This document shows, in pieces, positions 13,789-33,797 of a stretch of DNA of 64,000 nucleotides (within the stretch, counting starts at the first letter, position 1; each line of letters begins with the position of its first letter). A program made the translations under genes and the position numbers. Source of the DNA: Eubacteriales bacterium (GTDB lineage Bacteria; Bacillota; Clostridia; Oscillospirales; QAKW01); NCBI GenBank assembly GCA_045546815.1, contig JAZQDN010000054.1:14801-78800 (forward strand). The letters are read 5' to 3'. Under the pieces are notes generated by a model. It saw nothing but the letters and a program-made list of their open reading frames with translations. It was not told the origin of the DNA and ran no database searches.

Positions 13789-15057
13789 ATGAACGAACAA
13801 AAATTATTTGACTATGCAAAATCGGCCTATGCGGCATACGGCGTTGACGTTGAGTCAGCTCTTGAAAAGCTCGCGTCTGTACCCGTTGCAATGCACTGCT
13901 GGCAGGGTGATGACGTGCGCGGCTTTGACACCGACCCGAACAAGCCCTTGACAGGCGGCATCCAGACCACAGGTAACTATCCCGGTCGTGCTCGCACACC
14001 TGAGGAGCTTATGGCAGACATCGATTTTGTGTTAAAGCTCATTCCCGGCATCAAGAAAATGAATCTCCACGCTTGCTACGCAATTTTTGATGACGAAAAC
14101 GGCGGCTGGGTCGATCGCGATAAGCTCGAGCCCAAGCACTTTAAGAAATGGGTAGATTTTTGTAAAGAGCGCGGCCTCGGCTGTGACTTTAACCCCACCT
14201 TCTTTTCACATCCCAAGTGCGACCCGCTCACACTTTCGAGCCCGAACGAAGAAACACGTAACTTCTGGATCGAGCACGGCAAGGCTTGTATCCGCATTTC
14301 AGAGTACCTTGCAAAAGAGCTTGGTCAGCCCTGCATTATGAACATCTGGACAGGCGACGGCTTTAAGGATATCCCCGCTGACCGTATGGGTCCGCGCGTT
14401 CGCTATAAAGAGTCGATCGATGCTATCCTTTCGGAAAAGTACGACTTTAATCTTGTAAAACCCTGCGTTGAGTCAAAGGTATTTGGCATCGGTGTTGAGG
14501 CGTATACAGTCGGCTCTGCAGAGTTTTCACTCTCTTATGCCGCTGCAAATATGGATAAATGCATTCCGCTTATGGATAACGGTCACTATCATCCGACAGA
14601 GGTTGTGTCGGACAAGATCCCCGCACTTCTTGCCTTCTTCCCCGAGGTTGCACTTCACATCACACGTCCTATACGTTGGGACTCAGACCACGTTGTGCTT
14701 CTTGACGACGAGACAAAAGAAATCTGCAAAGAGATCGTTCGTTGCGGCGGTCTTGACGGTCGCGTAAAAATCGCGCTCGACTACTTTGACGCTTCTATCA
14801 ACCGTATCTCTGCCTGGGCTGTAGGTATGCGTAACGTGCAAAAGGCACTTCTTATGGCGCTTCTCACGCCCGACCTTACCAAAATGCAAAACGACAACAA
14901 TTGGTCAGAGCTTATGGTTGTTCAGGAAGAGCTTAAAACATTGCCCTTCGGCGCTGTTTGGGGCGAGTACTGCCGCCGTCAAGGTGTTCCTGCAGACAAC
15001 GAGTGGTTTGCATCGGTTAAAGCTTATGAAAACGACGTTTTGGTTAAACGTGTATAG
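13789..15057 (+). CDS. rhaA: L-rhamnose isomerase
   Basis: 422 aa, collinear with remembered E. coli RhaA over its full length (VPVAMHCWQGDDVRGF, TGGIQTTGNYPG, RWDSDHVVLLDDET). Confidence 0.9.
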   Translation: MNEQKLFDYAKSAYAAYGVDVESALEKLASVPVAMHCWQGDDVRGFDTDPNKPLTGGIQTTGNYPGRARTPEELMADIDFVLKLIPGIKKMNLHACYAIFDDENGGWVDRDKLEPKHFKKWVDFCKERGLGCDFNPTFFSHPKCDPLTLSSPNEETRNFWIEHGKACIRISEYLAKELGQPCIMNIWTGDGFKDIPADRMGPRVRYKESIDAILSEKYDFNLVKPCVESKVFGIGVEAYTVGSAEFSLSYAAANMDKCIPLMDNGHYHPTEVVSDKIPALLAFFPEVALHITRPIRWDSDHVVLLDDETKEICKEIVRCGGLDGRVKIALDYFDASINRISAWAVGMRNVQKALLMALLTPDLTKMQNDNNWSELMVVQEELKTLPFGAVWGEYCRRQGVPADNEWFASVKAYENDVLVKRV

Positions 15058-15068
15058 GAGATAGAATT

Positions 15069-16142
15069 ATGTTTTTTAAAGAAAATGAAAAGCTTTTAAA
15101 TGATTTTTCACGTATTTCAAAAACCGCAGGCGCACGCGCTGACTATGTTCAGGGCGGCGGCGGTAACACGTCAGTAAAACTCGCAGGCGGTCTTATGGCT
15201 ATCAAGGCATCGGGCTTTTGCCTGTCCGATATCGAGCCGGACAAGGCATATGCCGTGCTTGACGGCGCAGGCGTCAGAGATTTTTATTTAACTCATGAGC
15301 CGAGCGATTTTGAAAACGTTGAAACAGCGGGCTCTGCAAAGGCAAAGGAGTCTGTAAAGACAATCGAGGGTCTTGCGCAGCTTCGCCCGTCGGTTGAGGC
15401 AGGCTTTCACTCAATACTCAAAACCTTTGTTGTACATACCCACAGCGTTTATGCAAACCTCGCAGCGTGCGCAGTAAACTGCCGCGAGATCTGTCAAAAG
15501 GCGTTTGCAGATGCTGACTATTCGTGGGGTATGGTGCCCTATGTTGACCCCGGCGCAAACCTCACCTTTGCTATAAGAAACGAGCTTGACCGCGTTGAAA
15601 AAGAAACGGGTAAGGTTCCTTCAATTATAATTATGCAAAACCACGGTATCATCGCACACGATGATGACCCTGACAAATGTCTTGCGCTTCACGCTGACGC
15701 AAATGAGCGTCTGGCAAAGCAGTTCGGTATCACAGCTGATTCTTTCCCCGCAGTTGAGATAAAAGAGGTGGAGAGCGGTCTTTACGAGGCGGCAACACCC
15801 TATCTTACAGATGCGCTTAAGAGCGGCAAGTACACCGAGCAGTTTTTGCTTGAGCAGCCGCTCTATCCCGACCAGATGGTATTTTTGATCGGCACATTCT
15901 CAATGGATAAGGACACCGTAGAGGACGGACAGTGCGTTGCATACAGCGATAGCGGCAGAGTTGCTTTGAGAATGGACGGCAAAAAAGCGCAGGTGCTTGT
16001 TGAAACACTCACAGCCGTTGTATTTGTTATAAACAATATCGAGGCGGCAGGACATCCGCTTTCAACCATGGGCGAGGCCGCAAAGAGCTTTATTGCCAAC
16101 TGGGAGAGCGAAAAATACCGTAAATCACTTGCAGGTAAATAA
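15069..16142 (+). CDS. Class II aldolase/adducin-domain protein resembling the aldolase half of bifunctional RhaEW (YuxG-type)
   Basis: 357 aa. GGGGNTSVK motif as in YuxG-type N-termini. Metal-site His residues VVHTHS and MQNHGII. Confidence 0.6.
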   Translation: MFFKENEKLLNDFSRISKTAGARADYVQGGGGNTSVKLAGGLMAIKASGFCLSDIEPDKAYAVLDGAGVRDFYLTHEPSDFENVETAGSAKAKESVKTIEGLAQLRPSVEAGFHSILKTFVVHTHSVYANLAACAVNCREICQKAFADADYSWGMVPYVDPGANLTFAIRNELDRVEKETGKVPSIIIMQNHGIIAHDDDPDKCLALHADANERLAKQFGITADSFPAVEIKEVESGLYEAATPYLTDALKSGKYTEQFLLEQPLYPDQMVFLIGTFSMDKDTVEDGQCVAYSDSGRVALRMDGKKAQVLVETLTAVVFVINNIEAAGHPLSTMGEAAKSFIANWESEKYRKSLAGK

Positions 16143-16154
16143 GGAGATAAGCTA

Positions 16155-17033
16155 ATGGGTGTAGATATGACAAAATGGCAGGAGATTGCCAAGAAAAACA
16201 TACATAACCGTCCGCAAGGACAGGGTCGCCTTGCAGGCAAGGTTACAATCGTAACGGGTGCGGCGCAGGGATTTGGTAAGGGCATTGCGCAGGAGCTTTA
16301 CGACGAGGGCGCAACAATAATCATTGCCGATATGAACGAGGAGCTTGCAAATACCGTTGCCGATGAAATGGGTGAGCGTGCGTGCGCGATTGCCGTAAAC
16401 GTTGCTGACGAGGACAGCGTTGCATCACTTGTTTCACAGACTGTTGAAAAGTTCGGCGGTCTCGATATTATGGTAGCAAACGCCGGCGTTGTGCGCTCGG
16501 GTCCCGTTGCAGATTTTGAGAAAAAAGATTTTGAGTTTGTAACCGCAATCAATTATACAGGTCTTTTCCTTTGCTGTAAGTATGCCGCGATCATTATGCA
16601 GGCACAGCACGAGGCTGACCCCGATGCATCGTTTGACATTATTGCAATGTCGAGCAAGTCCGGTCTTGAGGGTTCAAATAAAAACTTTGCATACGCAGGC
16701 AGTAAGTTTGGCGCGATCGGTCTTGTACAGAGCTTTGCTCTCGAGCTTTGCGCTTATAACATAAAGGTGAACGCAGTCTGCCCCGGCAACTACCTTGATG
16801 GTCCGCTGTGGTCTGACCCCGTTCGCGGTCTTTTTGTACAGTATCTGCAGGCGGGCAAGGTGCCCGGCGCAAAAACTGTTGAGGATGTTCGCCGTTTTTA
16901 TGAGGCAAAGGTGCCGATGAACCGCGGCTGCCTTCCTATCGACGTTGCACGCGCTGTTATGTACTGCGTTGAGCAAAAGTATGAGACAGGACAGGCAATC
17001 CCCGTCACAGGCGGACAAGTAATGTTAAATTAA
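16155..17033 (+). CDS. Short-chain dehydrogenase/reductase, sorbitol-6-phosphate dehydrogenase (SrlD)-like; resembles the SDR half of RhaEW
   Basis: 292 aa with its own RBS (AAGGAGA). TGAAQGFG dinucleotide motif; YAGSK catalytic Y-x-x-x-K. The C-terminus KVPMNRGC...TGQAIPVTGGQVMLN closely parallels remembered SrlD. Confidence 0.65.
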   Translation: MGVDMTKWQEIAKKNIHNRPQGQGRLAGKVTIVTGAAQGFGKGIAQELYDEGATIIIADMNEELANTVADEMGERACAIAVNVADEDSVASLVSQTVEKFGGLDIMVANAGVVRSGPVADFEKKDFEFVTAINYTGLFLCCKYAAIIMQAQHEADPDASFDIIAMSSKSGLEGSNKNFAYAGSKFGAIGLVQSFALELCAYNIKVNAVCPGNYLDGPLWSDPVRGLFVQYLQAGKVPGAKTVEDVRRFYEAKVPMNRGCLPIDVARAVMYCVEQKYETGQAIPVTGGQVMLN

Positions 17034-17042
17034 GGTGGCATT

Positions 17043-18197
17043 ATGATAGATATTAAAGTTTTAAATAAACTCAACGCACCTACCAAAGAAGAGCGCCTTG
17101 CAAACTTAAAAGAAGTTTTAAAGGATACAGCCTTTCCTCCCATGGTGCCGCAATACATAAATAATCACATACACACAACCTATTCATTCTCGCCCTATTC
17201 ACCGACAGCGTCTGTATACGCTGCGCGTATGGAGGGGCTTTGCACCGCCGGTATTATCGACCACGACTCAATTTCGGGTGCAAGAGAGTTTTTAGAGGCG
17301 GCAAAAATTGTTGACATACCCGTTACAATCGGTATGGAGGCAAGAATCAATATGGACGGCACCCGTCTTGAAGGCCGCCGCACCAACAATCCCGACCAGG
17401 TCGGAATTTCGTATATGACAATTCAGTCGGTGCCTCACGATAAAATTGATGTTTTGACAGAATTTTTCAAGCCGTATCAGCAGGCACGCCACGAGCGTAA
17501 TCGCAAAATGATTGATAAAATCAACGGACTTTTGCCAGGTCTTGCGCTTGATTATGAAAAAGACGTGCTGCCGCTGTCAATGGCACACGAAAACGGCGGT
17601 GTTACCGAGCGCCACTTAATGTATGCGCTTGCAATAAAGCTCACAAATATGGTGGGTAAGGGCGCACCGATGATAGAAAAGCTTGAGGGTCTTGGTCTTA
17701 CACTTTCTCAAAAACAGACAGCACAGATGCTCGACACCGACTATCCGTTTTATGAGTACGACCTGCTCGGCATCTTAAAGAGTGCGTTTGTACCCAAAAT
17801 CTACGTTGATGCAACCGATGAGTGCCCGAAGCTTTCTGATATGGTAAAGCTTTGTAATGATATTGACGCATATCTTTGCTACGCATATCTCGGCGACGTC
17901 GGCGACAGCGTAACAGGCGACAAAAAGGCGCAGAAGTTTGAAGACGACTATCTTGACGATGTGTTTGAGTGCTTAAAAGAGGAGGGCGTAAAGTCAGTCA
18001 CCTATATGCCTACCCGAAACACACCCGCACAGCTCGAAAGACTGCGTAAGCTCTGCGACGACTACGGAATGTTTCAGATTTCGGGCGAGGATATCAACTC
18101 GCCGCGTCAGAGCTTTGTTATAAAGGCGATGGAAAACCCGATGTTTTCCAATCTCATCGACGCAACCTGGAAACTTATTGAACACGAAAATAAATAG
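17043..18197 (+). CDS. PHP-domain (polymerase/histidinol-phosphatase-like) metal-dependent phosphoesterase
   Basis: 384 aa. N-terminal NNHIHTTYS (HxH) and GIIDHD motifs typical of the PHP fold. Confidence 0.6.
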   Translation: MIDIKVLNKLNAPTKEERLANLKEVLKDTAFPPMVPQYINNHIHTTYSFSPYSPTASVYAARMEGLCTAGIIDHDSISGAREFLEAAKIVDIPVTIGMEARINMDGTRLEGRRTNNPDQVGISYMTIQSVPHDKIDVLTEFFKPYQQARHERNRKMIDKINGLLPGLALDYEKDVLPLSMAHENGGVTERHLMYALAIKLTNMVGKGAPMIEKLEGLGLTLSQKQTAQMLDTDYPFYEYDLLGILKSAFVPKIYVDATDECPKLSDMVKLCNDIDAYLCYAYLGDVGDSVTGDKKAQKFEDDYLDDVFECLKEEGVKSVTYMPTRNTPAQLERLRKLCDDYGMFQISGEDINSPRQSFVIKAMENPMFSNLIDATWKLIEHENK

Positions 18198-18212
18198 AAA
18201 AGAGTGAATAAT

Positions 18213-19472
18213 ATGAACACAAAAGCAGTACGTATACACGGTAAGATGGACCTTCGTCTTGATGATGTGAACTTACCCGATATCGGTCCCGATGGCGTTC
18301 GCGTTCGCGTTATCTGTGACAGCCTTTGTATGTCAAGCTACAAGGCGGCAATCGAAGGCGGCGACCACAAGCGCGTTCCCGACCGTTGCGACCTCACCCC
18401 CACAGTTCTCGGTCACGAGTTCTGCGGCGATATTGTTGAGGTTGGCGACAACTGGAAGCATAAATATAAAGTAGGCGATAAGTTTGTAATCCAGCCTGCC
18501 CACTACCACAATGGCAGTCAGATGGCACCCGGATATTCATATGAATTTTGCGGCGGTGATGCGCAGTACGGCAACATTCCCGTTGAAACTCTTCTTGAAA
18601 ACTGCCTGCTACCTTATAATTCAGATACATATTACTACGGCTCACTTGCAGAGCCCCTTAGCTGTGTTATCGGTACCTTCCACGCAATGTATCATACAAA
18701 GGCGGGCTCATACGTTCACGAGATGGGCATAAAAGAGGGCGGAAAGATGGCACTGCTTGCATCGGTAGGTCCTATGGGTCTTGCCGCAATCGACTATGCT
18801 ATCCACTGCGACCGCAGACCCAGCCTTCTTGTTATAACCGATATCGACGACGACAGACTTGCGCGTGCCGCATCGATCTACACGGTAGAAGAGGCTGCTA
18901 AATTCGGCATCGAGCTTCACTATGTAAATACCAAGATGGACAACGCAACCGAGTATCTCCGCGAGCTGACAGGCGGCACAGGCTACGACGATGTTGTATG
19001 CTTTGCACCTGTAAAGCCGCTTATCGAGCAGGCTGACGATATCCTCGGCTTTGACGGCTGTCTCAACTTCTTTGCAGGTCCTACCGACAGTCAGTTCAAG
19101 GCACCGTTTAACTGGTACAACGTTCACTATCTCTACACACACGTTGTCGGCACCTCGGGCGGTAACACAAACGATATGCAGGAGGCAATTGCAATGATGA
19201 ATGAGGGCAGACTTAACCCGTCAGCACTCGTTACCCACATCGGCGGTCTCCACGCGGCAATTGACACGACCCTCAATCTTCCCAAGATCCCCGGCGGTAA
19301 AAAGCTTATCTATACACAGATTGATATGCCGCTTGTTGCTATTGCTGATTTTGAAAAGATGGGTGAAACCGAGCCTATGTTCAAAGAGCTCGACAGACTC
19401 TGCAAAGCAAATAACAATCTCTGGAACCCCGAGGCTGAAAAATATCTGCTTGCAAACGCCAAAAAAATATAA
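18213..19472 (+). CDS. Zinc-type medium-chain dehydrogenase, L-sorbose-1-phosphate-reductase-like
   Basis: ORF track starts at GTG 18204; ATG at 18213. CDSLCMSS...GHEFCGDIVEVG zinc-ADH motifs. About 420 aa, as in SorE-type reductases. Confidence 0.65.
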   Translation: MNTKAVRIHGKMDLRLDDVNLPDIGPDGVRVRVICDSLCMSSYKAAIEGGDHKRVPDRCDLTPTVLGHEFCGDIVEVGDNWKHKYKVGDKFVIQPAHYHNGSQMAPGYSYEFCGGDAQYGNIPVETLLENCLLPYNSDTYYYGSLAEPLSCVIGTFHAMYHTKAGSYVHEMGIKEGGKMALLASVGPMGLAAIDYAIHCDRRPSLLVITDIDDDRLARAASIYTVEEAAKFGIELHYVNTKMDNATEYLRELTGGTGYDDVVCFAPVKPLIEQADDILGFDGCLNFFAGPTDSQFKAPFNWYNVHYLYTHVVGTSGGNTNDMQEAIAMMNEGRLNPSALVTHIGGLHAAIDTTLNLPKIPGGKKLIYTQIDMPLVAIADFEKMGETEPMFKELDRLCKANNNLWNPEAEKYLLANAKKI

Positions 19473-19493
19473 TTATAATTAAGGAGAAAAATT

Positions 19494-20786
19494 ATGAATC
19501 TTAAGTATATGCATCCCGCTGACCAGCTCGTTATGTTTATGCAGCGTATCTATGACAAGGGTCTTACCACCACCTCGGGTGGTAACCTGTCAATTATGGA
19601 CAGCGACGGCAACATCTGGATAACACCCGCAAGTGTTGATAAGGGTACTCTTCGCCGTGAGGATATTATCTGCGTTAAGCCCGACGGTACGACCGTAGGT
19701 CCGCATAACCCCTCATCAGAGATTCCTTTCCACGCATCAGTTTATAAAATGCGTCCCGATCTCAAGGCTGTGCTTCACGCACATCCCCCCGCACTCGTTG
19801 CGTTCTCAATCGCAAGCCGTGTACCCAATCTTGACCTGCTCCCCACTATCCGCCGTATCTGTAAGGATGCAAAAATCGCCGTTTACGGTGTGCCCGGCAG
19901 TGAGGACCTCGGCAACAAAATCGGTGCAGTTTTTGCAGAGGGCTGTGATATTGCAATCCTCGAAAACCACGGTGTGTGCATCGGCGCAGCGGATATGTTC
20001 ACCGCTTTCCAGCGCTTTGAAACACTTAACCTTGCAGCTGACCTTGAAATCAAGGCTACAAAAATCGGTAAAATCAAGAGCCTTTCTGAAGAAGACCACC
20101 GTATTGCAGTTACAACCCACCACACAAAGCTTGACGACTTTATTCCGCACACAATCACATCGGAGGAGCGTTCGGCACGCCGTGATATGATAACACTTAT
20201 CAAGCGTTCATACCGTCAGGGTCTGTTTACCGCAACCCACGGCACATACTCGGTTCGTCTGTCTGATGACAGCTTTCTTATCACACCCTTCGGTCAGGAC
20301 CGCGCTTATCTTGAAGAGGATGACCTTGTGCGCGTAAAGGGCGGCATGAAGGAGCTTAACAAGACACCCTCAAGGGCAGTTGCGCTCCACGAGGAGATTT
20401 ATAAGCAAAACCCCGAAATCCGTGCAATCCTTCAGGCACACCCCGTGCACGCTATGGCTTTTGCTGTAACAGATGCACCCTTTGACCCCAGAACCATTCC
20501 CGAAAGCTATATTCTGCTTCGTGATATTAAGAAGATACCGTTTGGCGACCTGTACACAAACACGAAAAAGGTTGCAAAATCATTTGATGCACCGCATCCT
20601 GCATTTATGGTTGAAAACAACAGCGTTATCGTTACAGGCAACAGCTTACTTCAGGCTTTTGACCGCCTCGAAGTTATGGAAGCTACCGCACACTCACTTG
20701 TAAACGCAAGCAGTCTTGGTGATGTTGACCGCATTACCGATGAAGAGGTAGAGGACCTTAAAAAAGCATTCCACCTCGAAGGCTAA
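19494..20786 (+). CDS. Fused tandem class II aldolase/adducin-domain protein
   Basis: 430 aa with two aldolase-II domains. Domain 1 has TSGGNLS, LHAHPP and ENHGV. Domain 2 has ATHGTYS and LQAHPVH, but ENNSV where ENHG is expected. Confidence 0.65.
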   Translation: MNLKYMHPADQLVMFMQRIYDKGLTTTSGGNLSIMDSDGNIWITPASVDKGTLRREDIICVKPDGTTVGPHNPSSEIPFHASVYKMRPDLKAVLHAHPPALVAFSIASRVPNLDLLPTIRRICKDAKIAVYGVPGSEDLGNKIGAVFAEGCDIAILENHGVCIGAADMFTAFQRFETLNLAADLEIKATKIGKIKSLSEEDHRIAVTTHHTKLDDFIPHTITSEERSARRDMITLIKRSYRQGLFTATHGTYSVRLSDDSFLITPFGQDRAYLEEDDLVRVKGGMKELNKTPSRAVALHEEIYKQNPEIRAILQAHPVHAMAFAVTDAPFDPRTIPESYILLRDIKKIPFGDLYTNTKKVAKSFDAPHPAFMVENNSVIVTGNSLLQAFDRLEVMEATAHSLVNASSLGDVDRITDEEVEDLKKAFHLEG

Positions 20787-20822
20787 AATAAAAAAGAGTC
20801 GGTTTAAACCGACTCTTTTTTA
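20786..20822. repeat. 37-nt repeat copy A containing a perfect 32-nt palindrome (bidirectional terminator-like)
   Basis: aaat-aaaaaagagtcggtttaaaccgactctttttt-a; palindrome at 20790..20821. Identical to 23130..23166. Supplies the last codons KKESV-stop of the MFS ORF. Confidence 0.9.
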
Positions 20823-22054
20823 AATGCTTTTTTTACCCAAATAACTAAAATAACGCTGAGAACCACCGCAACAACCGACAAAAGTTGTTGTGCGTAAATC
20901 GGCAAGCCAAAGACTGTGTTTCCGTTTTTTTGAATGATGCTGACAAGCGGACTTAGTGCAAGAGTGGACAAAAATCCCATAACACCCGCAACCGCTTGAC
21001 AGACTGCAAGCGCATCGGCACGTGACTCGTTTGGTGCATAGTCAAATACAAGATTAATAAGACCGCTGTTGGTACCACCGAGTGCCATTCCGTGCAGAAT
21101 ATAATATAAAACTAATAATACAGATGCTGTTTTTGGGTTTGTGAAAACCACTGCAAGATAGGCAAATAACAAAAGCACCGATGCTCGTCCGAACATCCTC
21201 GCAAACGAGTGTTTGTCAGCATACCTGCCCCAAAACTTCGACACGGCAATTCGTGAGATGCTGCCCACAACTCCCATTATCGTTACGGCTTTTAGAGAAA
21301 AGCCAAGTTCGTTTATAAGATATGTATTATAAAATGGTGTTGCCGTATGCGTTACAACCTGATACAGCATAAAGGTAAGCATTACACCGCGCATCTTTTT
21401 ATTTGAAAACACAGACTTAAGCACAAAAAATATGTTTGGCTTTGTTGCTTTGGCAATCGGGCTTTCGTTGGCTCTTACCATTGACACAGTGTGAATAATG
21501 CAAAGTGCAAGCATAACCAACGCAAAAGAAATAAATGCCAGAGTATACTGCCCTTCTTCGATAAACTTATCACTAAGTGCACCCATAGCAAATGAGAATA
21601 TCATCCCCACCCACAGCGACGTCATTTCCTTGTCGGCGGTAAAGCTTCCCCTGTGGCTGTCATCTACAAGCGACATAAGCCACGCAATCTTTTTGGGATG
21701 TGCAATATTATAAATAAGATACGCAAGAACAATAATCACTACAAACAGTGCCATTTTTACCGTACCATTAATATTTAAAAGCGGTATAAAATACAGCAAA
21801 ATAAAAAGCAGTTGGTTTGCGATACTGAGTGCAATTACAAATGGCTTTTTGTGTGCCGTCTGAAAGAAAAGTGATATAAGTTGAAAAAGACATCCAAGAG
21901 TGATTATCGACGACAAAATCCCTGTTATACCATCAGGGATACCAAGGTATTTTGTGAGCGTTGCCAAAAACGCACCCGACACCACAAGGCTTATAAGATG
22001 CTCGGCAGTAGCCTCCACAATATACATTTTTTGAGATAAATTGTATTTTTTCAT
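20804..22054 (-). CDS. MFS-type transporter
   Basis: About 12 hydrophobic helices. Start uncertain (TTG 22093, ATG 22081 or ATG 22054; none has a strong RBS). The C-terminal KKESV is encoded by the palindromic repeat. Confidence 0.7.
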   Translation of the reverse strand: MKKYNLSQKMYIVEATAEHLISLVVSGAFLATLTKYLGIPDGITGILSSIITLGCLFQLISLFFQTAHKKPFVIALSIANQLLFILLYFIPLLNINGTVKMALFVVIIVLAYLIYNIAHPKKIAWLMSLVDDSHRGSFTADKEMTSLWVGMIFSFAMGALSDKFIEEGQYTLAFISFALVMLALCIIHTVSMVRANESPIAKATKPNIFFVLKSVFSNKKMRGVMLTFMLYQVVTHTATPFYNTYLINELGFSLKAVTIMGVVGSISRIAVSKFWGRYADKHSFARMFGRASVLLLFAYLAVVFTNPKTASVLLVLYYILHGMALGGTNSGLINLVFDYAPNESRADALAVCQAVAGVMGFLSTLALSPLVSIIQKNGNTVFGLPIYAQQLLSVVAVVLSVILVIWVKKAFKKESV

Positions 22055-22098
22055 AAACCTATAGTAACAGACAAAAATCATCAGTTCAAGCAATTGGC

Positions 22099-22117
22099 TT
22101 ACGAAAAATTTTCGTAA
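22099..22117. promoter_or_regulatory. 19-nt perfect palindrome, candidate LacI-family operator
   Basis: ttacgaaaa-a-ttttcgtaa, in the divergent MFS / LacI intergenic region. Confidence 0.45.
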
Positions 22118-22166
22118 ACCTTGAATTTTTTATTATCAAAAGTATAATTAAATTGGGTGATTAAAA

Positions 22167-23120
22167 ATGACGATGGAAAAGCTCGCAAAGCTTGCAGGTG
22201 TTTCGATATCTACGGTATCAAAAGCATTTAAGGACGCATCCGACATAAGCGTTGACACAAAAGAAAGAATATTTGCACTTGCAAAGGAATACGGATGCTA
22301 CGGAAAGTTTTATAAATCACGATTTCATAAAAAGATTTTTGCAATAATTTTTCCCGAAATCGAAAGCGCATACTACAACGACTATGTAAGACGTCTGCAA
22401 GGCATAATTGAGCGAAACGACGGAATTGTGCTTATGTCGACTGATAACTTTGATAAAAAAAAGCAGGCAGAACTTATCGACTATTACGCTTCGTTTTTAA
22501 ATGTTAGCGGCATTTTTATAATCTCTTTGCAAACCGAATTAAAACGCGGCTATGACACCCCGATTGTATCGCTTATGTCATCAAAATCAAAAGCTGACTC
22601 AATAAACACCGATATGCACTGTGCGATGCGTGAAGCAGTTGAGCTTTTGACAAAAAATGGTCACACCGATATTGCATTTTTAGGCGAATCACTTACCAAA
22701 TCAAAAGCAAAAATGTTTTGCGATATATGTCATCTGCCATACAATTGCGACAATGTTATTGAAAGTAAGTTTCGTTTTCAGTCGGCAGGTCAGGACGGCG
22801 CAAAACAGCTTTTAAATAAAAAAACAAAATACACCGCCATAATCTGCGCATATGATGACATAGCTTATGGTGCAATACATTATCTTAAAAAACAAGGAAT
22901 TTCAGTACCGCACGATATATCGGTAATAGGCATTGACAACATAAATTTCTCACAATATGCTGAAACACCGCTCACTACAATCGACTATAATGCCAAAACA
23001 ATTTGTTTGAGTGCGTGGGAGCTTATGTCAAAAAAAGTGAAAAACAAATATTATAAGGATAAAAATGTTATAATTCCCGCAAAACTCATTTTGCGAGACA
23101 GTGTTGCAAAATGCAAATAA
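22167..23120 (+). CDS. LacI-family transcriptional regulator
   Basis: 317 aa. N-terminal HTH MEKLAKLAGVSISTVSKAF. Periplasmic-binding-protein-like C-terminal domain. Confidence 0.85.
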   Translation: MTMEKLAKLAGVSISTVSKAFKDASDISVDTKERIFALAKEYGCYGKFYKSRFHKKIFAIIFPEIESAYYNDYVRRLQGIIERNDGIVLMSTDNFDKKKQAELIDYYASFLNVSGIFIISLQTELKRGYDTPIVSLMSSKSKADSINTDMHCAMREAVELLTKNGHTDIAFLGESLTKSKAKMFCDICHLPYNCDNVIESKFRFQSAGQDGAKQLLNKKTKYTAIICAYDDIAYGAIHYLKKQGISVPHDISVIGIDNINFSQYAETPLTTIDYNAKTICLSAWELMSKKVKNKYYKDKNVIIPAKLILRDSVAKCK

Positions 23121-23129
23121 AATCAATTG

Positions 23130-23166
23130 AAATAAAAAAGAGTCGGTTTAAACCGACTCTTTTTTA
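23130..23166. repeat. 37-nt repeat copy B containing the same perfect 32-nt palindrome
   Basis: Identical to 20786..20822; palindrome at 23134..23165. Supplies KKESV-stop to the 23148..24032 ORF. Confidence 0.9.
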
Positions 23167-24032
23167 TTTTTTATTTTATAATACACAGAAATTATAATAA
23201 TAAACAGTAATATAAATACCCCGCCGACAATATATGCCGCTGTATCCTTTGACGATAAATGGGCAATTCCGATAATCAGCAGTCCGTTTACAAGCAGGTA
23301 ACACAGCCCGAGATAATTGCTGAATTTTGCGTGTATTTTGCCAAGGTTAGCACCGAGAAGGTGAAAAACAATAAAAAGTGCACTACTCAACGCTAAAACC
23401 CACTGCTTTGTCATAACAGCTGTCACATCGCAGGTAACAGCGCCGACTATAAACCACTCAAGAAGACCGATACCGATAATTTGAGCGGCTGAATATTTTG
23501 GTGTTCTTTTTTTGCGTGTTGATGAATCAAACGTTCTGTGGAAATTGTTGCTGTAGTATAAATTGGCGTCAAACACAGCAATAACATTGCCGTTAACGAC
23601 GGCAAGATAAGCGAACTTGCCCTTTGGAACGCACGACGCGTTAACCTCTACCGATTTATCGTCCGCTTTAAAAATATAGCTGTGAGTATCGGGGTAATCG
23701 CCCGTGCCAACGGTATGTATTTCGTTTACGCACTGCGCAAATACGATGCGGCAGCGAAAAAACAGAACAGAAAAAACCTCACGTATTGTCGAAAAAACTA
23801 TGCCTCTGAAAAAATAAAGACCGATTCCGAGTACCACCGGAAAAATACCGACAATAACCAGTACTGCGAGCGGGTAAAGCCCTTCTTTAATTACTAAAAT
23901 GCCTGCAAACAGAGCAACGCCGGGCATAAATATTTCAAACAGCAGCCCCAGAATACAGGCCAAAAGATTTATTTCGGGTGGTCTTGTAAGTCTGTAGGCT
24001 TTTGATATTTCGCGCCTTGTCAGTTCCTTCAT
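23148..24032 (-). CDS. Integral membrane protein, unknown function
   Basis: 294 aa. Hydrophobic N- and C-terminal blocks flank a soluble middle segment. No motif recognised. Confidence 0.5.
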   Translation of the reverse strand: MKELTRREISKAYRLTRPPEINLLACILGLLFEIFMPGVALFAGILVIKEGLYPLAVLVIVGIFPVVLGIGLYFFRGIVFSTIREVFSVLFFRCRIVFAQCVNEIHTVGTGDYPDTHSYIFKADDKSVEVNASCVPKGKFAYLAVVNGNVIAVFDANLYYSNNFHRTFDSSTRKKRTPKYSAAQIIGIGLLEWFIVGAVTCDVTAVMTKQWVLALSSALFIVFHLLGANLGKIHAKFSNYLGLCYLLVNGLLIIGIAHLSSKDTAAYIVGGVFILLFIIIISVYYKIKNKKESV

Positions 24033-24156
24033 TCAATTATACTCCTGATTATAAATTGGTTATATTATAAATCAAAAGTACATCGCACGCAAGAACAGTA
24101 TTTACTTTTTTCGGTTTAATGATATAATATTAATATTAATTAAAAGGGGAAAAAGA

Positions 24157-25164
24157 ATGAAAAGTGTATGTAAATGGTTTTTAAAAGCTCTTGTTGCAGG
24201 GCTTTTATCATTTTGCATAATCAGCGGTTTTTGCTATTTTTATTATAATTTACCTGTACACAGCACTGTTGAGTCGGGGGCAACCGATCACAAATGGAAC
24301 GGCAATCATTTTTCTGCCCGCGGTACAGAGGGCTTTGCTGTCACCAAAACTGACGGTAACGGCTACGTTAACACGTTCCCTCACACAAAGGCTACGACAG
24401 ATATACTTGTACTCGGTTCTTCACACACCGAGGGCTTTAACGTAAACAGTGATGAAAATTTCACTTATCTTCTTAACAAAAAACTGTACGATAACGGTTT
24501 TGATATGTATGCCTATAATATAGGTATGTCATCGCATACTGTTGCGCGCTGTTTTGACAACCTGGAAAACGCAATAAACGAGTATGAGCCGACAAAATAT
24601 GTTGTGATTGACACTTATTCTGTAAATCCGCCGCTCGAGGAGTTAAAACAACTTGACGCCGGAACCTTTGCGGAGCTTACAGTGCATAGCTCGGGCCTGC
24701 TCTACCAGTTACAAAAGCTTGACTTTTTACGTCTTGTATATTCACAGCTTTCAAACGCATTAAGCCAGAATGAAGCGGTCGCTTCTGTCTCCGAGCAAGA
24801 GGTGGATTTGACAGAATACCGACTCTATTTGGAAAAAATGCTCAAAAAAGCAAGCGATATTTGTCAAAAAAACGGCGTCGAGCTTATCATTGTCTACTCG
24901 CCTGAGCTGATGATTGATTATAACGGCGGTGTTTTGCCGCAAAAAAACCTCGATGAAATCAAAATGTTCGAAAGCGGATGTGAACAAAATGGCATAAAGT
25001 TTATCAATATGCACCCCGAGTATGAAAAAATGTATCTTGAAACAAATCATCTGCCGCGCGGATTTGCCAATACGGCAGTAGGCAAGGGGCATACAAACAA
25101 ATACGGTCATGCCTGCTTTGCGGACACTCTTTATAAGTATATTGCGGAAGGAGACAATAAATGA
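24157..25164 (+). CDS. Membrane-anchored SGNH/DltD/AlgX-like partner of the MBOAT O-acyltransferase (tentative)
   Basis: 335 aa. N-terminal TM anchor. ILVLGSSHTEG resembles SGNH block I. Overlaps the MBOAT gene start by 4 nt. Confidence 0.4.
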   Translation: MKSVCKWFLKALVAGLLSFCIISGFCYFYYNLPVHSTVESGATDHKWNGNHFSARGTEGFAVTKTDGNGYVNTFPHTKATTDILVLGSSHTEGFNVNSDENFTYLLNKKLYDNGFDMYAYNIGMSSHTVARCFDNLENAINEYEPTKYVVIDTYSVNPPLEELKQLDAGTFAELTVHSSGLLYQLQKLDFLRLVYSQLSNALSQNEAVASVSEQEVDLTEYRLYLEKMLKKASDICQKNGVELIIVYSPELMIDYNGGVLPQKNLDEIKMFESGCEQNGIKFINMHPEYEKMYLETNHLPRGFANTAVGKGHTNKYGHACFADTLYKYIAEGDNK

Positions 25165-26600
25165 CGTTTTCGAGTATTACGTTTTTGGTGTTTTTCGCCA
25201 TTGTATATGGTCTTCTTCTGATATTTAACAGTAAGAATATCCGTAATAAGCTTTCTGAAAAACAGCAACTGTTTTTAAAGCACGGCATTTTGCTTGTTGC
25301 AAGCTATGTATTTTACGGATGGTGGGATTTCAGATTCTGCTTTTTGATGATGCTTCTTACAGTCATCTCCTGGCTGTGCGCAAAGATGATTGATGAAAAT
25401 AAAAACAAAAAGCTGTTTACTGTAATCGGTGTTGCTGCCCCTTTGATAACCCTTGGATTTTTTAAGTATTTCAATTTCTTTATTGCGTCGTTTACAAAAC
25501 TTTTTGGTATTCAAACGCCGGGTGCACTTAATATCATTTTGCCTGTCGGTATCTCGTTTTACACCTTCCAGTCAATGAGCTACACAATCGACGTGATCCG
25601 CGGCTCAATAAAAAAACAGTCGCTTGCTGACGTTGCGCTGTATATTTCCTTTTTTCCGCAACTTGTTGCAGGTCCTATTGTTAAAGCGTCAGAATTTATT
25701 CCACAGTTAAAAAATAATAATCCGCTTAAATTAAGCGATTTGAGTGCAGGTGCTCAGATTTTTGTTTTCGGTCTTTTCAAAAAAATCGTTATTGCCGATA
25801 ACCTGTCGGTGTTTGTTGACGATGTGTTTGAAAAACCGCTTGCTTTTTCGTCTCTTACCGTTATTCTCGCAGTGGTTGCATACTCTATTCAGATTTATTG
25901 TGACTTTTCGGGTTATTCTGATATGGCAGTCGGTACGGCAAGATGTCTGGGCTATAAGTTTTTACCCAACTTCAATATGCCGTATATTTCGAAAAACGTA
26001 ACGGAGTTTTGGAAAAGATGGCATATCAGTCTGTCGACATGGCTTCAGGAATATCTGTATATTCCGCTTGGCGGAAACAGAAAAGGAACTGTACGCAGAT
26101 ATATAAACTTATTGACCACTATGATACTTGGCGGTTTGTGGCACGGTGCAAACTATACGTTTGTGGTGTGGGGTGCCCTTCACGGCGTTGCGCTTTGTAT
26201 ACATAAGCTTTTTATGAAATTCAGAAAAAGCAAAAAATCCACGCTTGTTGGCTCGGTTATTGCGGGAATTATAACATATATTTTTGTATGTGTCTGCTGG
26301 GTGTTTTTCCGCGCAGAAAGCTTCAGTGTGGCAGTCGACGTGTTATCACGTATTTTTGTATGGCAGAGTGGTATCACCCAGATTTTCTCGTGGACTGTCT
26401 TTAGCATAGTGGCGGTTGCGGCAGCAACAGTGATTGCAATGATCAGATCCAAAAAGCTTGGAAAAAAGAATGCTGAAGGATTTTATGTGATTCTTGATCT
26501 TGGTAAAGTTCATAATCTGGTTATTTTCTTTACTGTGATCATGCTTATTATCTGTCTTGCGTATACAAACGCTAATCCTTTTATATATTTTCAGTTTTAA
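25161..26600 (+). CDS. MBOAT-family membrane O-acyltransferase (AlgI/DltB/PatA-like)
   Basis: 479 aa polytopic protein. Characteristic FWKRWHISLSTWLQEYLYIPLGGNR and GGLWHGANYTF blocks. Confidence 0.8.
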   Translation: MTFSSITFLVFFAIVYGLLLIFNSKNIRNKLSEKQQLFLKHGILLVASYVFYGWWDFRFCFLMMLLTVISWLCAKMIDENKNKKLFTVIGVAAPLITLGFFKYFNFFIASFTKLFGIQTPGALNIILPVGISFYTFQSMSYTIDVIRGSIKKQSLADVALYISFFPQLVAGPIVKASEFIPQLKNNNPLKLSDLSAGAQIFVFGLFKKIVIADNLSVFVDDVFEKPLAFSSLTVILAVVAYSIQIYCDFSGYSDMAVGTARCLGYKFLPNFNMPYISKNVTEFWKRWHISLSTWLQEYLYIPLGGNRKGTVRRYINLLTTMILGGLWHGANYTFVVWGALHGVALCIHKLFMKFRKSKKSTLVGSVIAGIITYIFVCVCWVFFRAESFSVAVDVLSRIFVWQSGITQIFSWTVFSIVAVAAATVIAMIRSKKLGKKNAEGFYVILDLGKVHNLVIFFTVIMLIICLAYTNANPFIYFQF

Positions 26601-26606
26601 AAAGGT

Positions 26607-27320
26607 ATGTTTATGGAAAATGCCAGACTAAAAATTTTCAGCGGCAGTGCACTTAAGATGATCGCCGTTATAACGATGCTCATTGACCACGCCGCGCATA
26701 TTTTTAAAGACGACTTTGCCTTTATGGCAAACGTGCTCTTTTCGCTTGGTGGTAAGGAGTATACTGTTTACTATCTGCTGCGGCTTGTCGGTCGGCTTGC
26801 CTTCCCGCTGTTTTGCTTTTTGATAGTTGAGGGGTATCTTCACACAAAAAACGTAAAAAAATATCTGCTGCGGCTGTTTGTGTTTGCACTCGTTTCCGAA
26901 ATTCCGTTTAATCTGCTTATTTGCGGAAAAATCTTCGGGTTGTCGCATCAAAACGTGTTTTTTACTCTGCTTTTGGGGGTATTGCTCCTTTATATTTCCG
27001 ATAACGTAAAGAGCTTGCCCGTAAAGGCGGTGCTGATGCTTGCTCTTGCTGTTGTTGCGGTAGTTTTTCGAGCCGATTACGGACTTTTGGGGGTACTGCT
27101 CATTTTGCTCATCTACCATTTGCGCGACCACCCCGCAGCGCAGGCATTGCTTGCGTATCCGATGCTGTCGGGCGGTGTTGCGGCACTCGCGGCTTTTATA
27201 CCGATAAATATGTACAGCGGTCAGCGAGGGTTTATCAAATCAAAGGTGTTAAAATTCGCTTTTTACCTCTTTTACCCCTTGCATATATTGGTGCTTGTCG
27301 CAATTAAACATCTTATATAA
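26607..27320 (+). CDS. TraX-family membrane protein (putative acyltransferase)
   Basis: 237 aa. LKMIAVITMLIDHAAHIF opening and polytopic profile typical of the TraX family. Confidence 0.65.
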   Translation: MFMENARLKIFSGSALKMIAVITMLIDHAAHIFKDDFAFMANVLFSLGGKEYTVYYLLRLVGRLAFPLFCFLIVEGYLHTKNVKKYLLRLFVFALVSEIPFNLLICGKIFGLSHQNVFFTLLLGVLLLYISDNVKSLPVKAVLMLALAVVAVVFRADYGLLGVLLILLIYHLRDHPAAQALLAYPMLSGGVAALAAFIPINMYSGQRGFIKSKVLKFAFYLFYPLHILVLVAIKHLI

Positions 27321-27350
27321 AAAAACGGGATGAATTTCATCCCGTTTTTT
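27321..27350. terminator. Bidirectional intrinsic terminator
   Basis: A5-cgggatg-aattt-catcccg-T6, between the convergent traX-like and eda genes. Confidence 0.8.
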
Positions 27351-29847: not shown

Positions 29848-29998
29848 TTTATTGCTCCTTTAGGTTACATATATTTATTTTAGCACTAATTCTATACTTT
29901 TTAAAGTCAAAGTGTTAATTATTTTTTTCGTCTCATAAAATATTTTGATATGGTTTTTGTCAACAATAATGACAAACACAGTAGCAAGGGGGAACGTT

Positions 29999-32377: not shown

Positions 32378-32435
32378 ATATGCTTTTAAACGATTTCAAC
32401 GAAGTTTTGCACAAAAATGTTCAAAATGTTGATTT

Positions 32436-33785
32436 TTACGGTTGGTTTACAATACCGATAAAACGGGGCATTCCGTCCTTACCGCTTACTGCAAAAATGA
32501 ACGGGCGGTCGAGCACCATATCAACCTCGTCTTTGGGAGGTGCAGCGCCTGCGTCCTTTGCAATTACGGTATAAGCCGCCGCCTCGCACCCTTCCTCGTC
32601 TATTTTAACGCGGGCGGCGTGCTTTGCCTGCGAAACAAACAGCGGATAGTCGGTGGTAAGAGGCGAAAAATCGGAAACGGTGTAGTCAAACGCCGATTTT
32701 ATTCCAAGCGTTTCAAGGCATTCGATAAGGTCGGTGTCAGACATTACGTCAAACTTTGGCAGTGTCAGGTTTACAATGGGGTAGGCGGTCTGCACCCCGC
32801 CGTCATAGTTGTATTTATCAGCGTCCCCCGTTATGATGTCGAGCACAGCGTCGCTGTTTATAATGTCATACACGCTTTTTTGTTCATCGGGCAGAATAAA
32901 GTACATACGGCTGTCCTGCTCAAAGCCGAGGCTTGTTGCGCTGTAGCCGTCACCATAGTAATACGACTGCGAGCGCGAGCTGTTCATAAACTCGGTCTGC
33001 ACCTTGCCGTCTGATGTGTTAAAATCCCGCGTTTCGTTTAAGCTCTCGTTAAACTTAACGTCCCACTTTGCTTTAAAGTATATCGTTGACACAAGCGCCG
33101 CGATCGTCGCGTCGTTAAACTTAAGCTCCTTTGTGCTGTCATTGAGCAGGTCCTTTGTGTTGTCATTTATCCACTCTTTTATTGCCTGCACATACTTTTT
33201 GTCGGAAAAATTGCCCGAGGCGGTCGACGCATAGTAGCTGTCCTTTAAGATGTTTATCGTGTCCTGATTATAGTTTATGCCGTCACGCAGCCACAGCGAG
33301 TTTGCAAGCACCGACGAATAAACGCCGTTGTCAGCATACAACTTCTGCCACAGCTTGTTTGCGTTTTGGCGAAGGTCGGATATATCGTCCTTGCCGAGCA
33401 CTGATAAAATTTCGTTACGTGTACTGCTGTCTGTACACTCTGCGAGCATCGCAAGCGCAAAGTATATGTTAGCGGGTGAGTACACAAGGTTTTGCCCGTC
33501 ATCCTTTGCAAGCACACCGAGAGTGTTTTTAACATATTCACGAAAATCGCTATCGTCAATTTCAATGTTATTTTTCTCGTGCTCGATGTCAAACCACTCA
33601 CTGTAGGCGTCAGAAAATTCCTCGTAGTTTGCAAAGCTTTCTTCTAACGGATAGCTGACCTGCGTGGGATACTCCGCTGTGCCGAGCGGTGTGTATCGTG
33701 CTTCAAGACACTGGTCCTTGCCCCTGCAACCAAAAAGTGAAAGAGATATTATTGTTATTAATAATAATGAAATGATTTTTTTCAT
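32436..33785 (-). CDS. Serpin-family protease inhibitor, lipoprotein
   Basis: 449 aa. Lipobox SLSLFGC-RG. Serpin hinge/RCL and C-terminus: KIDEEGCEAAAYTVIAKDAGAAPPKDEVDMVLDRPFIFAV...PRFIGIVNQP. Confidence 0.85.
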   Translation of the reverse strand: MKKIISLLLITIISLSLFGCRGKDQCLEARYTPLGTAEYPTQVSYPLEESFANYEEFSDAYSEWFDIEHEKNNIEIDDSDFREYVKNTLGVLAKDDGQNLVYSPANIYFALAMLAECTDSSTRNEILSVLGKDDISDLRQNANKLWQKLYADNGVYSSVLANSLWLRDGINYNQDTINILKDSYYASTASGNFSDKKYVQAIKEWINDNTKDLLNDSTKELKFNDATIAALVSTIYFKAKWDVKFNESLNETRDFNTSDGKVQTEFMNSSRSQSYYYGDGYSATSLGFEQDSRMYFILPDEQKSVYDIINSDAVLDIITGDADKYNYDGGVQTAYPIVNLTLPKFDVMSDTDLIECLETLGIKSAFDYTVSDFSPLTTDYPLFVSQAKHAARVKIDEEGCEAAAYTVIAKDAGAAPPKDEVDMVLDRPFIFAVSGKDGMPRFIGIVNQP

Positions 33786-33797
33786 AGTATCGCTCCT

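What the first reader, a model, noticed from the sequence alone, without database searches (positions are those of the whole stretch)
20786..23166. Identical 37-nt perfectly palindromic repeats bracket the MFS-LacI cassette and donate the same five C-terminal codons to two unrelated ORFs
Seen: 20786..20822 and 23130..23166 are identical (aaat aaaaaagagtcggtttaaaccgactctttttt a). The central 32 nt is a perfect palindrome with the form of a bidirectional terminator. Each copy sits between convergent genes. Both minus-strand ORFs (the MFS and the 294-aa membrane protein) run into the repeat and end KKESV-stop. The 2.3-kb interval holds only the MFS gene, the LacI gene and a palindromic operator. 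Inference: one possibility is a genome-wide family of repeated palindromic terminator elements. Another is that the MFS-LacI unit was inserted or duplicated with its terminator. Because the repeat is palindromic, the two copies are at once direct and inverted repeats, so recombination could delete or invert the cassette.
Basis: seen in the sequence. Interest (0 to 1): 0.55.

Follow-up and report, generated by a model that had tools for sequence, protein, structure and literature searches.

The report
Duplicated two-way terminator flanking sugar-transport cassette
Two identical hairpin transcription terminators sit at either end of a small regulator-plus-transporter gene pair; this is most likely an ordinary terminator copied once during a local DNA rearrangement, not a genome-wide repeat or a new mobile element.

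Summary
Positions 20786-20822 and 23130-23166 are identical. The core is a 32-nt perfect palindrome, and both minus-strand ORFs end KKESV-stop inside it. Both copies fold as strong two-way intrinsic terminators between convergent genes.

It does not look like a repeat family. The 64-kb window has only these two copies. There were no exact matches in 185,579 species-representative genomes and one unrelated match in metagenomes.

The copy next to the MFS gene appears native to the cassette. Two orthologous cassettes (L002, L003) carry a related hairpin read in the same frame (KKES-stop). The copy next to LacI is therefore secondary. It adds three residues (ESV) to a rare membrane protein; two of its four full-length relatives end at KK and one at KNN.

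The LacI-operator-MFS unit is conserved, but its neighbours differ in all six lineages examined. The 3' flank of the adjacent rhamnose operon also varies among relatives.

In a second species the same cassette is bracketed by two copies of a different hairpin. There the junctions fall in A-runs.

Best reading: a local duplicative rearrangement with junctions in the terminator's A/T tracts. The exact path is unresolved. Interest is modest.

The parts
20786..20822 (.). Terminator copy T1. The 32-nt perfect palindrome is at 20790-20821. It lies between the convergent aldolase (+) and MFS (-) genes and holds the last 5 codons and stop of MFS. It is probably the cassette's native terminator.
   Evidence: RNA fold -24.3 and -23.7 kcal/mol on the two strands, no shuffle as good. 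Related in-frame hairpin at the MFS end in L002 and L003.
23130..23166 (.). Terminator copy T2, identical to T1. The palindrome extends to 23130-23169 (40 nt). It lies between the convergent LacI (+) and 294-aa (-) genes and supplies KKESV-stop to the 294-aa ORF. It is probably the secondary copy.
   Evidence: RNA fold -25.7 and -26.5 kcal/mol. Among the four full-length relatives of the 294-aa protein, two end at ...KK and one at ...KNN, without ESV.
19494..20786 (+). Double class II aldolase, last gene of a rhamnose-type catabolic operon (13789-20786). Its stop codon directly abuts T1.
   Evidence: Pfam. 93-95% identical proteins in relatives, where different genes and different terminators follow.
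20804..22027 (-). MFS transporter (407 aa from the ATG used by the public annotation; the longest ORF runs to 22093).
   Evidence: Pfam MFS_1. P0001 is 100% identical; relatives at 83, 81 and 77%.
22085..22125 (.). Control region between the divergent genes. It holds the 19-nt palindrome TTACGAAAAATTTTCGTAA (22099-22117), inside the outer inverted repeat TTCAAG (22085-22090) / CTTGAA (22120-22125). It is the likely LacI operator.
   Evidence: The region is conserved in the 7 orthologous cassettes; the palindrome itself carries 1-2 substitutions in some (alignment A1). A promoter-like site at 22121-22148 faces LacI.
22167..23120 (+). LacI-family repressor. Its stop lies 9 nt before T2.
   Evidence: Pfam LacI + Peripla_BP_3. 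76-81% identical in relatives, always divergent from the MFS gene.
23148..24032 (-). 294-aa membrane protein of a very rare family. Its last three residues (ESV) and stop come from T2.
   Evidence: In-frame codon score +0.20 like its neighbours, AGGAG ribosome-binding site, several hydrophobic segments. Six other hits in 1.84 billion representatives: four full-length relatives at 34-36% identity plus two shorter partial matches.
20787..27350 (.). Low-GC variable segment (about 0.36-0.43 GC against 0.46-0.51 around it). It holds the cassette plus the 294-aa, 335-aa, MBOAT and TraX genes, and ends at another palindromic terminator (27320-27350).
   Evidence: composition; none of these genes lies at this position in the relatives; the 294-aa to TraX genes have no counterpart in any fetched locus, and the cassette itself lies elsewhere in those genomes.

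Best explanation
T1 and T2 are ordinary two-way (bidirectional) intrinsic transcription terminators. Each stops the two convergent genes that meet at it. T1 is the LacI-MFS cassette's own terminator, inherited together with the MFS gene. T2 is a recent copy of it, made by a local duplicative rearrangement whose junctions lie in the A-run and T-run on either side of the hairpin. Three routes are possible: (a) tandem duplication of cassette plus terminator, followed by deletion of the second gene copy through A-run microhomology; (b) a double template switch during replication that copied only the A6-hairpin-T6 unit; (c) an inversion with staggered breaks. Whichever route applied, the copy replaced the native end of the neighbouring 294-aa gene at its Lys-Lys (AAAAAA) codons. 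That is why both ORFs now end KKESV. Shown here: the sequence identity, the terminator anatomy, the cassette-native origin of the hairpin type, the variable context, and the ESV extension. Inferred: the copying mechanism, its direction, and termination activity itself.
For: (1) Terminator anatomy on both strands: 15-19 bp stem, 4-nt loop, U-runs on both sides, dG -24 to -26.5 kcal/mol, z-scores -4 to -10. Eight of the nine perfect-stem hairpins found in the window by a hairpin-plus-A/T-run filter have this A-run/stem/T-run form. All have different sequences except this pair.
(2) Cassette-native origin: the MFS genes of L002 and L003 end AAA AAA GAG TCT TAG and AAA AAA GAG TCA TAA, inside the hairpin AAAAAAAGAGTC-loop-GACTCTTTTTTT. 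That is the same frame and the same outer stem as here. In the MFS tree the window groups with L004, and L002 and L003 branch outside them, so this hairpin type predates the window lineage.
(3) Secondary nature of T2: of the four full-length relatives of the 294-aa protein, two end ...KSKK, one ...KSKNN and one ...WRKSSEI. ESV is therefore an extension added at the KK codons.
(4) Not a dispersed family.
(5) A rearrangement-prone setting: the cassette has different neighbours in all six lineages examined. The 3' flank of the rhamnose operon varies among relatives: Clp in two lineages, something different in L014 and in L015. The Clp gene is inverted relative to L008.
(6) A parallel case with informative, asymmetric junctions. 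In the species of L004 and L005 (97% identical over 2.8 kb) the same cassette is bracketed by two copies of a different hairpin, GCAGATGG-loop-CCATCTGC. The copies form a 44-nt direct repeat in L004 and are loop-flipped in L005. In L004 the MFS gene has lost its native hairpin. Exactly after its A6 it is joined to TAA plus the sequence that follows cotJC in L005. The order of cassette and cotJABC is swapped relative to L002. This is what duplication followed by A-run-mediated deletion would produce.
Against: No intermediate state (such as a tandem cassette duplication) was found. No further remnant of MFS or LacI lies beyond the 37 nt. Identity beyond the palindrome is only 1-5 nt of A/T, so neither the orientation nor the route can be decided. 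The outer stem AAAAAAGAG...CTCTTTTTT also resembles the relatives' aldolase terminators, so only the two bases TC specifically link T to the MFS type. Only 64 kb of the genome could be searched. Termination was not measured. The second lineage might instead point to a dedicated insertion mechanism.
Confidence: 0.55

Rival explanations
1. Targeted insertion with target duplication. The cassette was inserted into a resident palindromic terminator between convergent genes. The insertion process duplicated the hairpin, for example through cruciform or hairpin cleavage with fill-in, or through a site-specific recombinase acting in trans with T as an att-like site. T would then belong to the insertion site, not to the cassette.
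For: Identical repeats lie exactly at both cassette ends in two lineages, with different hairpins. The cassette sits in a different context in each relative. Breakpoints coincide with hairpin edges. In L008 two similar terminators (25/29 identical, the differences compensatory) bracket another variable segment.
Against: No recombinase or transposase family was detected among the ORFs scanned between 12.9 and 33.8 kb. The hairpin matches the MFS-native type of L002 and L003 in sequence and in frame. The L004 repeat is asymmetric, extending 12-18 nt on one side and reaching into a 3' UTR, unlike a symmetric hairpin duplication. Four of the six cassette lineages examined have no bracket.
Confidence: 0.15
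2. The cassette was inverted in one step with staggered breaks across a single ancestral terminator shared by MFS and the 294-aa gene. This left a copy of the hairpin at each end of the inverted piece.
For: The arrangement X-> T <-LacI MFS-> T <-Y seen in relatives is the mirror image of the window's. Read as an inverted repeat the identity is 38 nt, against 37 nt as a direct repeat. Because T is a palindrome, two convergent ORFs entering a single T would both read KKESV (follows directly from the sequence).
Against: The one extra matching base is an A/T and carries no weight. No relative shows the proposed ancestral neighbourhood. In L004 the repeats are direct and asymmetric, so they need a different route.
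Confidence: 0.1
3. T is a member of a REP-like or MITE-like family of mobile palindromic terminators scattered through this genome, and two members happen to flank the cassette.
For: REP/BIME elements are known to act as bidirectional terminators (PMC2965389). Only 64 kb of the genome was visible.
Against: Two copies in 64 kb, both at one 2.3-kb unit, and no half-sites above chance. 0 hits in species-representative genomes. 1 unrelated hit in metagenomes. The other seven palindromic terminators in the window are all different. There are no terminal inverted repeats or target duplications beyond the hairpin.
Confidence: 0.07
4. Assembly artefact. The true structures are aldolase-T-294aa plus a separate T-containing piece, joined wrongly through the short repeat in a metagenome assembly.
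For: The window appears to be a metagenome-assembled contig (its public relatives are MAGs). A repeat node with two ways in and two ways out permits this path.
Against: 37 nt is far shorter than reads and than the k=141 indicated by the relatives' contig names. A 2.3-kb circle has no replication gene. The same kind of bracket appears in two independent assemblies of another species.
Confidence: 0.05

Closest known systems
Bidirectional intrinsic (Rho-independent) terminators between convergent genes
   Same: A perfect GC-containing stem-loop flanked by an A-run and a T-run, so that either strand gives hairpin plus U-tract. It sits at the 3' ends of convergent genes.
   Different: Two identical copies lie 2.3 kb apart, and the stop codons of two ORFs lie in the loop. 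ORFs running into terminators also occur elsewhere in this clade: by the coordinates, the L008 hairpin at 16142-16170 holds one stop codon (gene ending 16154) and overlaps the other by 2 nt (gene ending 16169).
REP / BIME elements of enterobacteria
   Same: Palindromic, extragenic, and able to terminate transcription in both directions (PMC2965389).
   Different: REPs occur in tens to hundreds of copies and are linked to a RAYT transposase (my own knowledge). Here there are two copies, no dispersed members, and none in 185,579 reference genomes.
Integron gene cassettes with attC sites
   Same: A compact gene unit bracketed by palindromic sites that fold as hairpins. The cassette is found in different contexts.
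   Different: attC sites are imperfect palindromes with bulged bases and a GTTRRRY core, and they need an integron integrase (my own knowledge). T is a perfect, bulge-free palindrome centred on GTTTAAAC with A/T runs. The cassette has two genes with their own promoters. No integrase was seen nearby.
Gene-order change by tandem duplication and loss, and microhomology-mediated template switching
   Same: Junctions lie in short A/T runs. A relic of the lost copy remains (terminator plus last codons). The order of cassette and cotJ is swapped between L002 and L004/L005.
   Different: No intermediate was observed, so the mechanism is inferred from the end products only.

Membership tests
Intrinsic bidirectional terminator | Stable GC-containing hairpin followed by a U-run, on both strands | tested here: met
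   15-19 bp stem, dG -23.7 to -26.5 kcal/mol on all four strand/copy combinations, T-run on both sides.
Intrinsic bidirectional terminator | Located at the 3' ends of convergent transcription units | tested here: met
   aldolase(+)/MFS(-) meet at T1 and LacI(+)/294-aa(-) meet at T2.
Intrinsic bidirectional terminator | RNA 3' ends form at the site in vivo | not testable with these tools
   Needs Term-seq or a reporter assay.
REP/BIME-like dispersed palindromic repeats | Many copies dispersed in intergenic regions of the genome | tested here: not met
   2 copies in 64 kb, both at one cassette. 0 in species-representative genomes. The rest of this genome was not available.
REP/BIME-like dispersed palindromic repeats | Associated RAYT (IS200/IS605-type) transposase in the genome | not tested
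   Only the ORFs between 12.9 and 33.8 kb were scanned against Pfam; none is a transposase.
MITE / composite transposon | Terminal inverted repeats with target-site duplication, or flanking IS copies with a transposase | tested here: not met
   The repeat is only the hairpin plus 1-5 A/T bases. There is no transposase in the segment and no plasmid or phage match.
Integron cassette / attC | Imperfect palindrome with R''-L''/L'-R' boxes, extrahelical bases and a GTTRRRY core; integron integrase | tested here: not met
   a perfect 32-40 nt palindrome without bulges, centred on GTTTAAAC. No integrase among neighbouring ORFs. The attC criteria are from my own knowledge.
Integrative element with attL/attR | Direct repeats at both ends plus a tyrosine or serine recombinase gene inside | tested here: not met
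   Repeats are present, but the 2.3-kb unit and the wider 6.5-kb low-GC segment encode no recombinase.

The most novel reading that the evidence does not exclude
In these Eubacteriales, palindromic two-way terminators might serve as portable, structure-recognised joining sites. Self-contained regulator-transporter cassettes would move between convergent-gene junctions and duplicate the local hairpin each time. This would be an integrase-free counterpart of integron cassettes. Because the palindrome reads the same on both strands, flanking and cassette genes would stay intact whether the cassette is present, inverted or excised.
Probability: 0.08. Interest if true: 0.75.

Novelty: new member of a known kind. 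Interest (0 to 1): 0.3.

Why it matters
As it stands, this is a tidy example of how terminators are copied and swapped when small gene units are rearranged, and of how a terminator can donate a few codons to whichever ORF runs into it. It matters in practice for annotation, because C-terminal tails such as KKESV are terminator-encoded. It also matters for strain-level structural variation: a 37-40 bp perfect repeat could allow clean loss or inversion of a sugar-uptake module. It would matter more if a wide survey showed that identical terminator pairs are enriched at the edges of variable gene cassettes. The second lineage (L004/L005) and the L008 terminator pair hint at this but do not establish it.

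Tried and rejected
1. Exact 32-mer scan of the species-representative genomes: no hit, so this genome or its close kin are not among them.
2. 24-mer core scan of metagenomes: one hit, downstream of an unrelated 592-aa glycosidase-like gene (L001). I read this as coincidence or convergence; the palindrome has only 12 independent positions (my estimate).
3. Exact-protein look-ups of the window's LacI, 294-aa and MFS proteins to fetch the rest of the contig: not on record. A genome-wide count was therefore impossible.
4. Search for a same-species strain: the nearest MFS is 83% identical and the nearest aldolase 95.3%. Presence/absence/inversion within the species could not be tested.
5. Looking for relics of a second cassette copy in the flanks by blastn, tblastx and blastp: nothing beyond the 37 nt.
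6. Testing whether the 294-aa ORF is spurious: rejected. It has good in-frame codon score, a ribosome-binding site, and four full-length remote homologues.
7. Rfam: only sub-threshold hits to the terminator parts of sRNA models.
8. Plasmid and phage collections: no match to the cassette.
9. Deciding direct against inverted orientation from flanking bases: 37 against 38 nt, uninformative.
10. Deriving T from the relatives' aldolase terminators (GAGGTGG type): possible for the outer stem only. It is less parsimonious than the MFS type, which also keeps the reading frame.
Full report
**Observation**

The sequence is as described. Positions 20786-20822 and 23130-23166 are 37/37 identical. The core, AAAAAAGAGTCGGTTTAAACCGACTCTTTTTT, is a perfect 32-nt palindrome at 20790-20821 and 23134-23165.

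Allowing 3 mismatches, these are the only two matches in 64 kb, and none is expected in shuffles. A search for the stem with any loop finds the same two. Half-site matches are at chance level.

Read as an inverted repeat the identity is 38 nt, against 37 nt as a direct repeat. The second copy is a 40-nt palindrome. The orientation of the two copies cannot be decided.

The MFS ORF and the 294-aa ORF, both on the minus strand, read AAA AAA GAG TCG GTT TAA through the left arm into the loop. Identical hairpin, identical frame and an A6 run explain the shared KKESV ending.

**What the element is**

On each strand, each copy folds into a 15-19 bp stem with a 4-nt loop, followed by a U-run. The folding energies are -23.7 to -26.5 kcal/mol, and no shuffle folds as well.

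A scan for perfect-stem hairpins next to an A-run or T-run found nine in the window. Eight have the A-run/stem/loop/stem/T-run form, and all have different sequences except this pair. The relatives use the same style. So T1 and T2 are ordinary two-way intrinsic terminators at convergent gene ends. Rfam gives only sub-threshold hits to the terminator parts of sRNA models.

**The cassette**

The interval holds a LacI-family repressor and an MFS transporter, transcribed divergently. Between them lies the palindrome TTACGAAAAATTTTCGTAA (22099-22117), inside an outer TTCAAG/CTTGAA inverted repeat. This control region is conserved in seven orthologous cassettes, though the palindrome itself carries 1-2 substitutions in some (alignment A1). 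In more distant relatives LacI is followed by a glycoside hydrolase (L012 GH39; L002 a GH42-like protein). The unit is therefore probably a glycoside uptake module.

**Is it a repeat family?**

- The exact 32-mer is absent from one genome of each of 185,579 species.
- The 24-nt core occurs once in the metagenome collection, downstream of an unrelated 592-aa glycosidase-like gene on a 2.7-kb contig.
- The cassette has no match in plasmids or phages.
- The remainder of this genome could not be fetched.

A dispersed family is therefore unsupported but not formally excluded.

**Which copy is original?**

MFS orthologues at 81% (L002) and 77% (L003) identity end AAA AAA GAG TCT TAG and AAA AAA GAG TCA TAA. 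Both ends lie inside the hairpin AAAAAAAGAGTC-loop-GACTCTTTTTTT. That is the same outer stem, entered in the same frame, as T.

In a neighbour-joining tree the window's MFS groups with L004, and L002 and L003 branch outside them. The GAGTC-type hairpin therefore predates the window lineage. More distant cassettes end KK-stop followed by other hairpins. T1 is thus most simply the cassette's own terminator.

The 294-aa protein is real but rare. It has good in-frame codon usage and a ribosome-binding site. It has no hit in the word-indexed search. It has six other hits among 1.84 billion representatives: four full-length relatives at 34-36% identity and two shorter partial matches. Of the four full-length relatives, two end ...KSKK, one ...KSKNN and one ...WRKSSEI. 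The window's ...KNKK-ESV is therefore a three-residue extension added at the Lys-Lys codons. That is where the A-run of T2 begins. T2 is the secondary copy.

One caveat applies. The outermost AAAAAAGAG...CTCTTTTTT also resembles the aldolase terminators of relatives. Only the bases TC and the preserved frame specifically tie T to the MFS type.

**Context**

The cassette has different neighbours in each of the six lineages examined:

- L003: sulfatase and a ribbon-helix-helix gene.
- L002: a GH42-like gene and cotJABC.
- L004 and L005: cotJABC on the other side.
- L012: GH39 and a YAcAr-like gene.
- L013: a 166-aa gene.

The adjacent rhamnose-type operon is 85% identical in DNA to L008. What follows its last gene varies:

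- A convergent Clp ATPase in L008, L009 and L011.
- An HTH gene and malic enzyme in L015, the closest relative (95.3% aldolase identity).
- Something else again in L014.

Where a terminator was identified (L008, L011, L015) it is that lineage's own.

In the window the breakpoint lies within 0-3 nt of the aldolase stop codon. The Clp gene lies 9 kb away in inverted orientation. The stretch 20.8-27.3 kb has lower GC (about 0.36-0.43 against 0.46-0.51). No recombinase or transposase family was detected among the ORFs scanned between 12.9 and 33.8 kb.

**A parallel case**

L004 and L005 are two independent assemblies of one species, 97% identical over 2.83 kb. They carry the same cassette bracketed by two copies of a different hairpin, AAAAAGCAGATGGATTTTCCATCTGCTTTTT. 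These are the only two copies in each locus.

In L004 the copies form a 44-nt direct repeat that extends 12 nt past the hairpin on one side. In L005 the right copy has its loop flipped.

In this species the MFS gene has lost its GAGTC hairpin. In L004 it is joined, exactly after its A6, to TAA plus the 27-nt stretch and hairpin that follow cotJC in L005. cotJC itself ends GAT AAA AAA TAA.

L002 has the order cassette-cotJABC, whereas L004 and L005 have cotJ(ABC)-cassette. This is the pattern expected from a duplication followed by A-run-mediated deletion, which leaves the neighbour's terminator behind as a relic.

Outside the shared 2.8 kb the two strains differ, and one break lies exactly at the edge of the hairpin.

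So copying of terminators at the edges of this cassette has happened at least twice, with different hairpins and in different directions. Four other cassette lineages show no bracket.

**Mechanism**

I commit to the following. T2 is a recent, local, non-reciprocal copy of the cassette's terminator, with junctions in the A/T runs. Both copies function simply as two-way terminators (confidence 0.55).

The sub-route is not resolved by the data. It could be tandem duplication plus deletion, a double template switch copying A6-hairpin-T6, or an inversion with staggered breaks. No relic beyond 37 nt exists.

The rivals are:

- Insertion into a resident terminator with target duplication (0.15).
- One-step inversion with staggered breaks (0.10).
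- A dispersed REP-like family (0.07).
- An assembly artefact (0.05).

**Consequences**

This part is inference. Because T reads the same on both strands, recombination between T1 and T2 would leave the aldolase, MFS, LacI and 294-aa genes all intact, whether the cassette were deleted or inverted. No second strain of this species is available to show whether that happens.

**Verdict**

The repeat-family reading is unsupported. The reading that the unit moved or duplicated together with its terminator is supported in outline. This is a new instance of known things (bidirectional terminators and microhomology-mediated local rearrangement) and is of modest interest. The recurrence in a second lineage is worth a wider survey.

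Noticed in passing
L004 1328-1371 and 3737-3780; L005 6835-6865 and 9217-9247: In another species (MFS 83% identical) the same LacI-MFS cassette is bracketed by two copies of a different terminator hairpin (GCAGATGG-loop-CCATCTGC). The copies are direct in L004 and loop-flipped in L005. A 27-nt stretch sits before the left copy in L005 but before the right copy in L004.
   Followed up: partly
L008 11308-11336 and 16142-16170: Two similar palindromic terminators (AAAAAAGAGGTGGTTTCCACCTCTTTTTT and AAAAACGAGGTGATTTTCACCTCGTTTTT) match at 25/29 positions, and the differences are two compensatory pairs. They bracket the Clp-amidohydrolase-BcrAD segment, which is rearranged in the window. By the gene coordinates, one neighbouring ORF has its stop inside the second hairpin and the other overlaps it by 2 nt.
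   Followed up: no
L003 3646-3678 and 3694-3720: Two adjacent hairpins sharing AAGTAGGTT...AACCTACTT lie 48 nt apart. This looks like a tandem local duplication of a terminator. L002 has a single related hairpin at 428-459.
   Followed up: no
window 29945-32311: The Clp-type AAA+ ATPase gene is 77% identical in DNA to the gene that lies directly downstream of the aldolase in L008, L009 and L011. Here it is inverted and 9 kb away.
   Followed up: partly
window 20787-27350: Low-GC block (about 0.36-0.43 against 0.46-0.51 around it). Besides the cassette it holds the 294-aa gene, a 335-aa protein without a Pfam match, an MBOAT acyltransferase and a TraX-family protein. Apart from the cassette, these genes have no counterpart in any fetched relative.
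   Followed up: partly
window 23148-24032: The 294-aa membrane protein belongs to a very rare family: six other hits in 1.84 billion representative proteins (four full-length at 34-36% identity, two shorter partial matches), and no Pfam match.
   Followed up: partly
window 32436-33785 and 33798-35465: Two tandem serpin genes lie next to an ECF-type sigma factor gene. Their starts share a 117-nt repeat at 73% identity (32435-32551 and 33797-33913). The same pair is present in L008.
   Followed up: no
L001 2010-2041: An unrelated low-GC metagenome contig uses almost the same hairpin (AAAAAAAAGAGTCGGTTTAAACCGACTCTTTT) as the terminator of a 592-aa glycosidase-like gene. This is probably coincidence or convergence.
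   Followed up: partly
L005 6387-6806: cotJC is truncated at its 5' end in L005 but complete in L004 (97% identical strain). This marks another breakpoint next to the cassette, or else a chimeric MAG contig.
   Followed up: no
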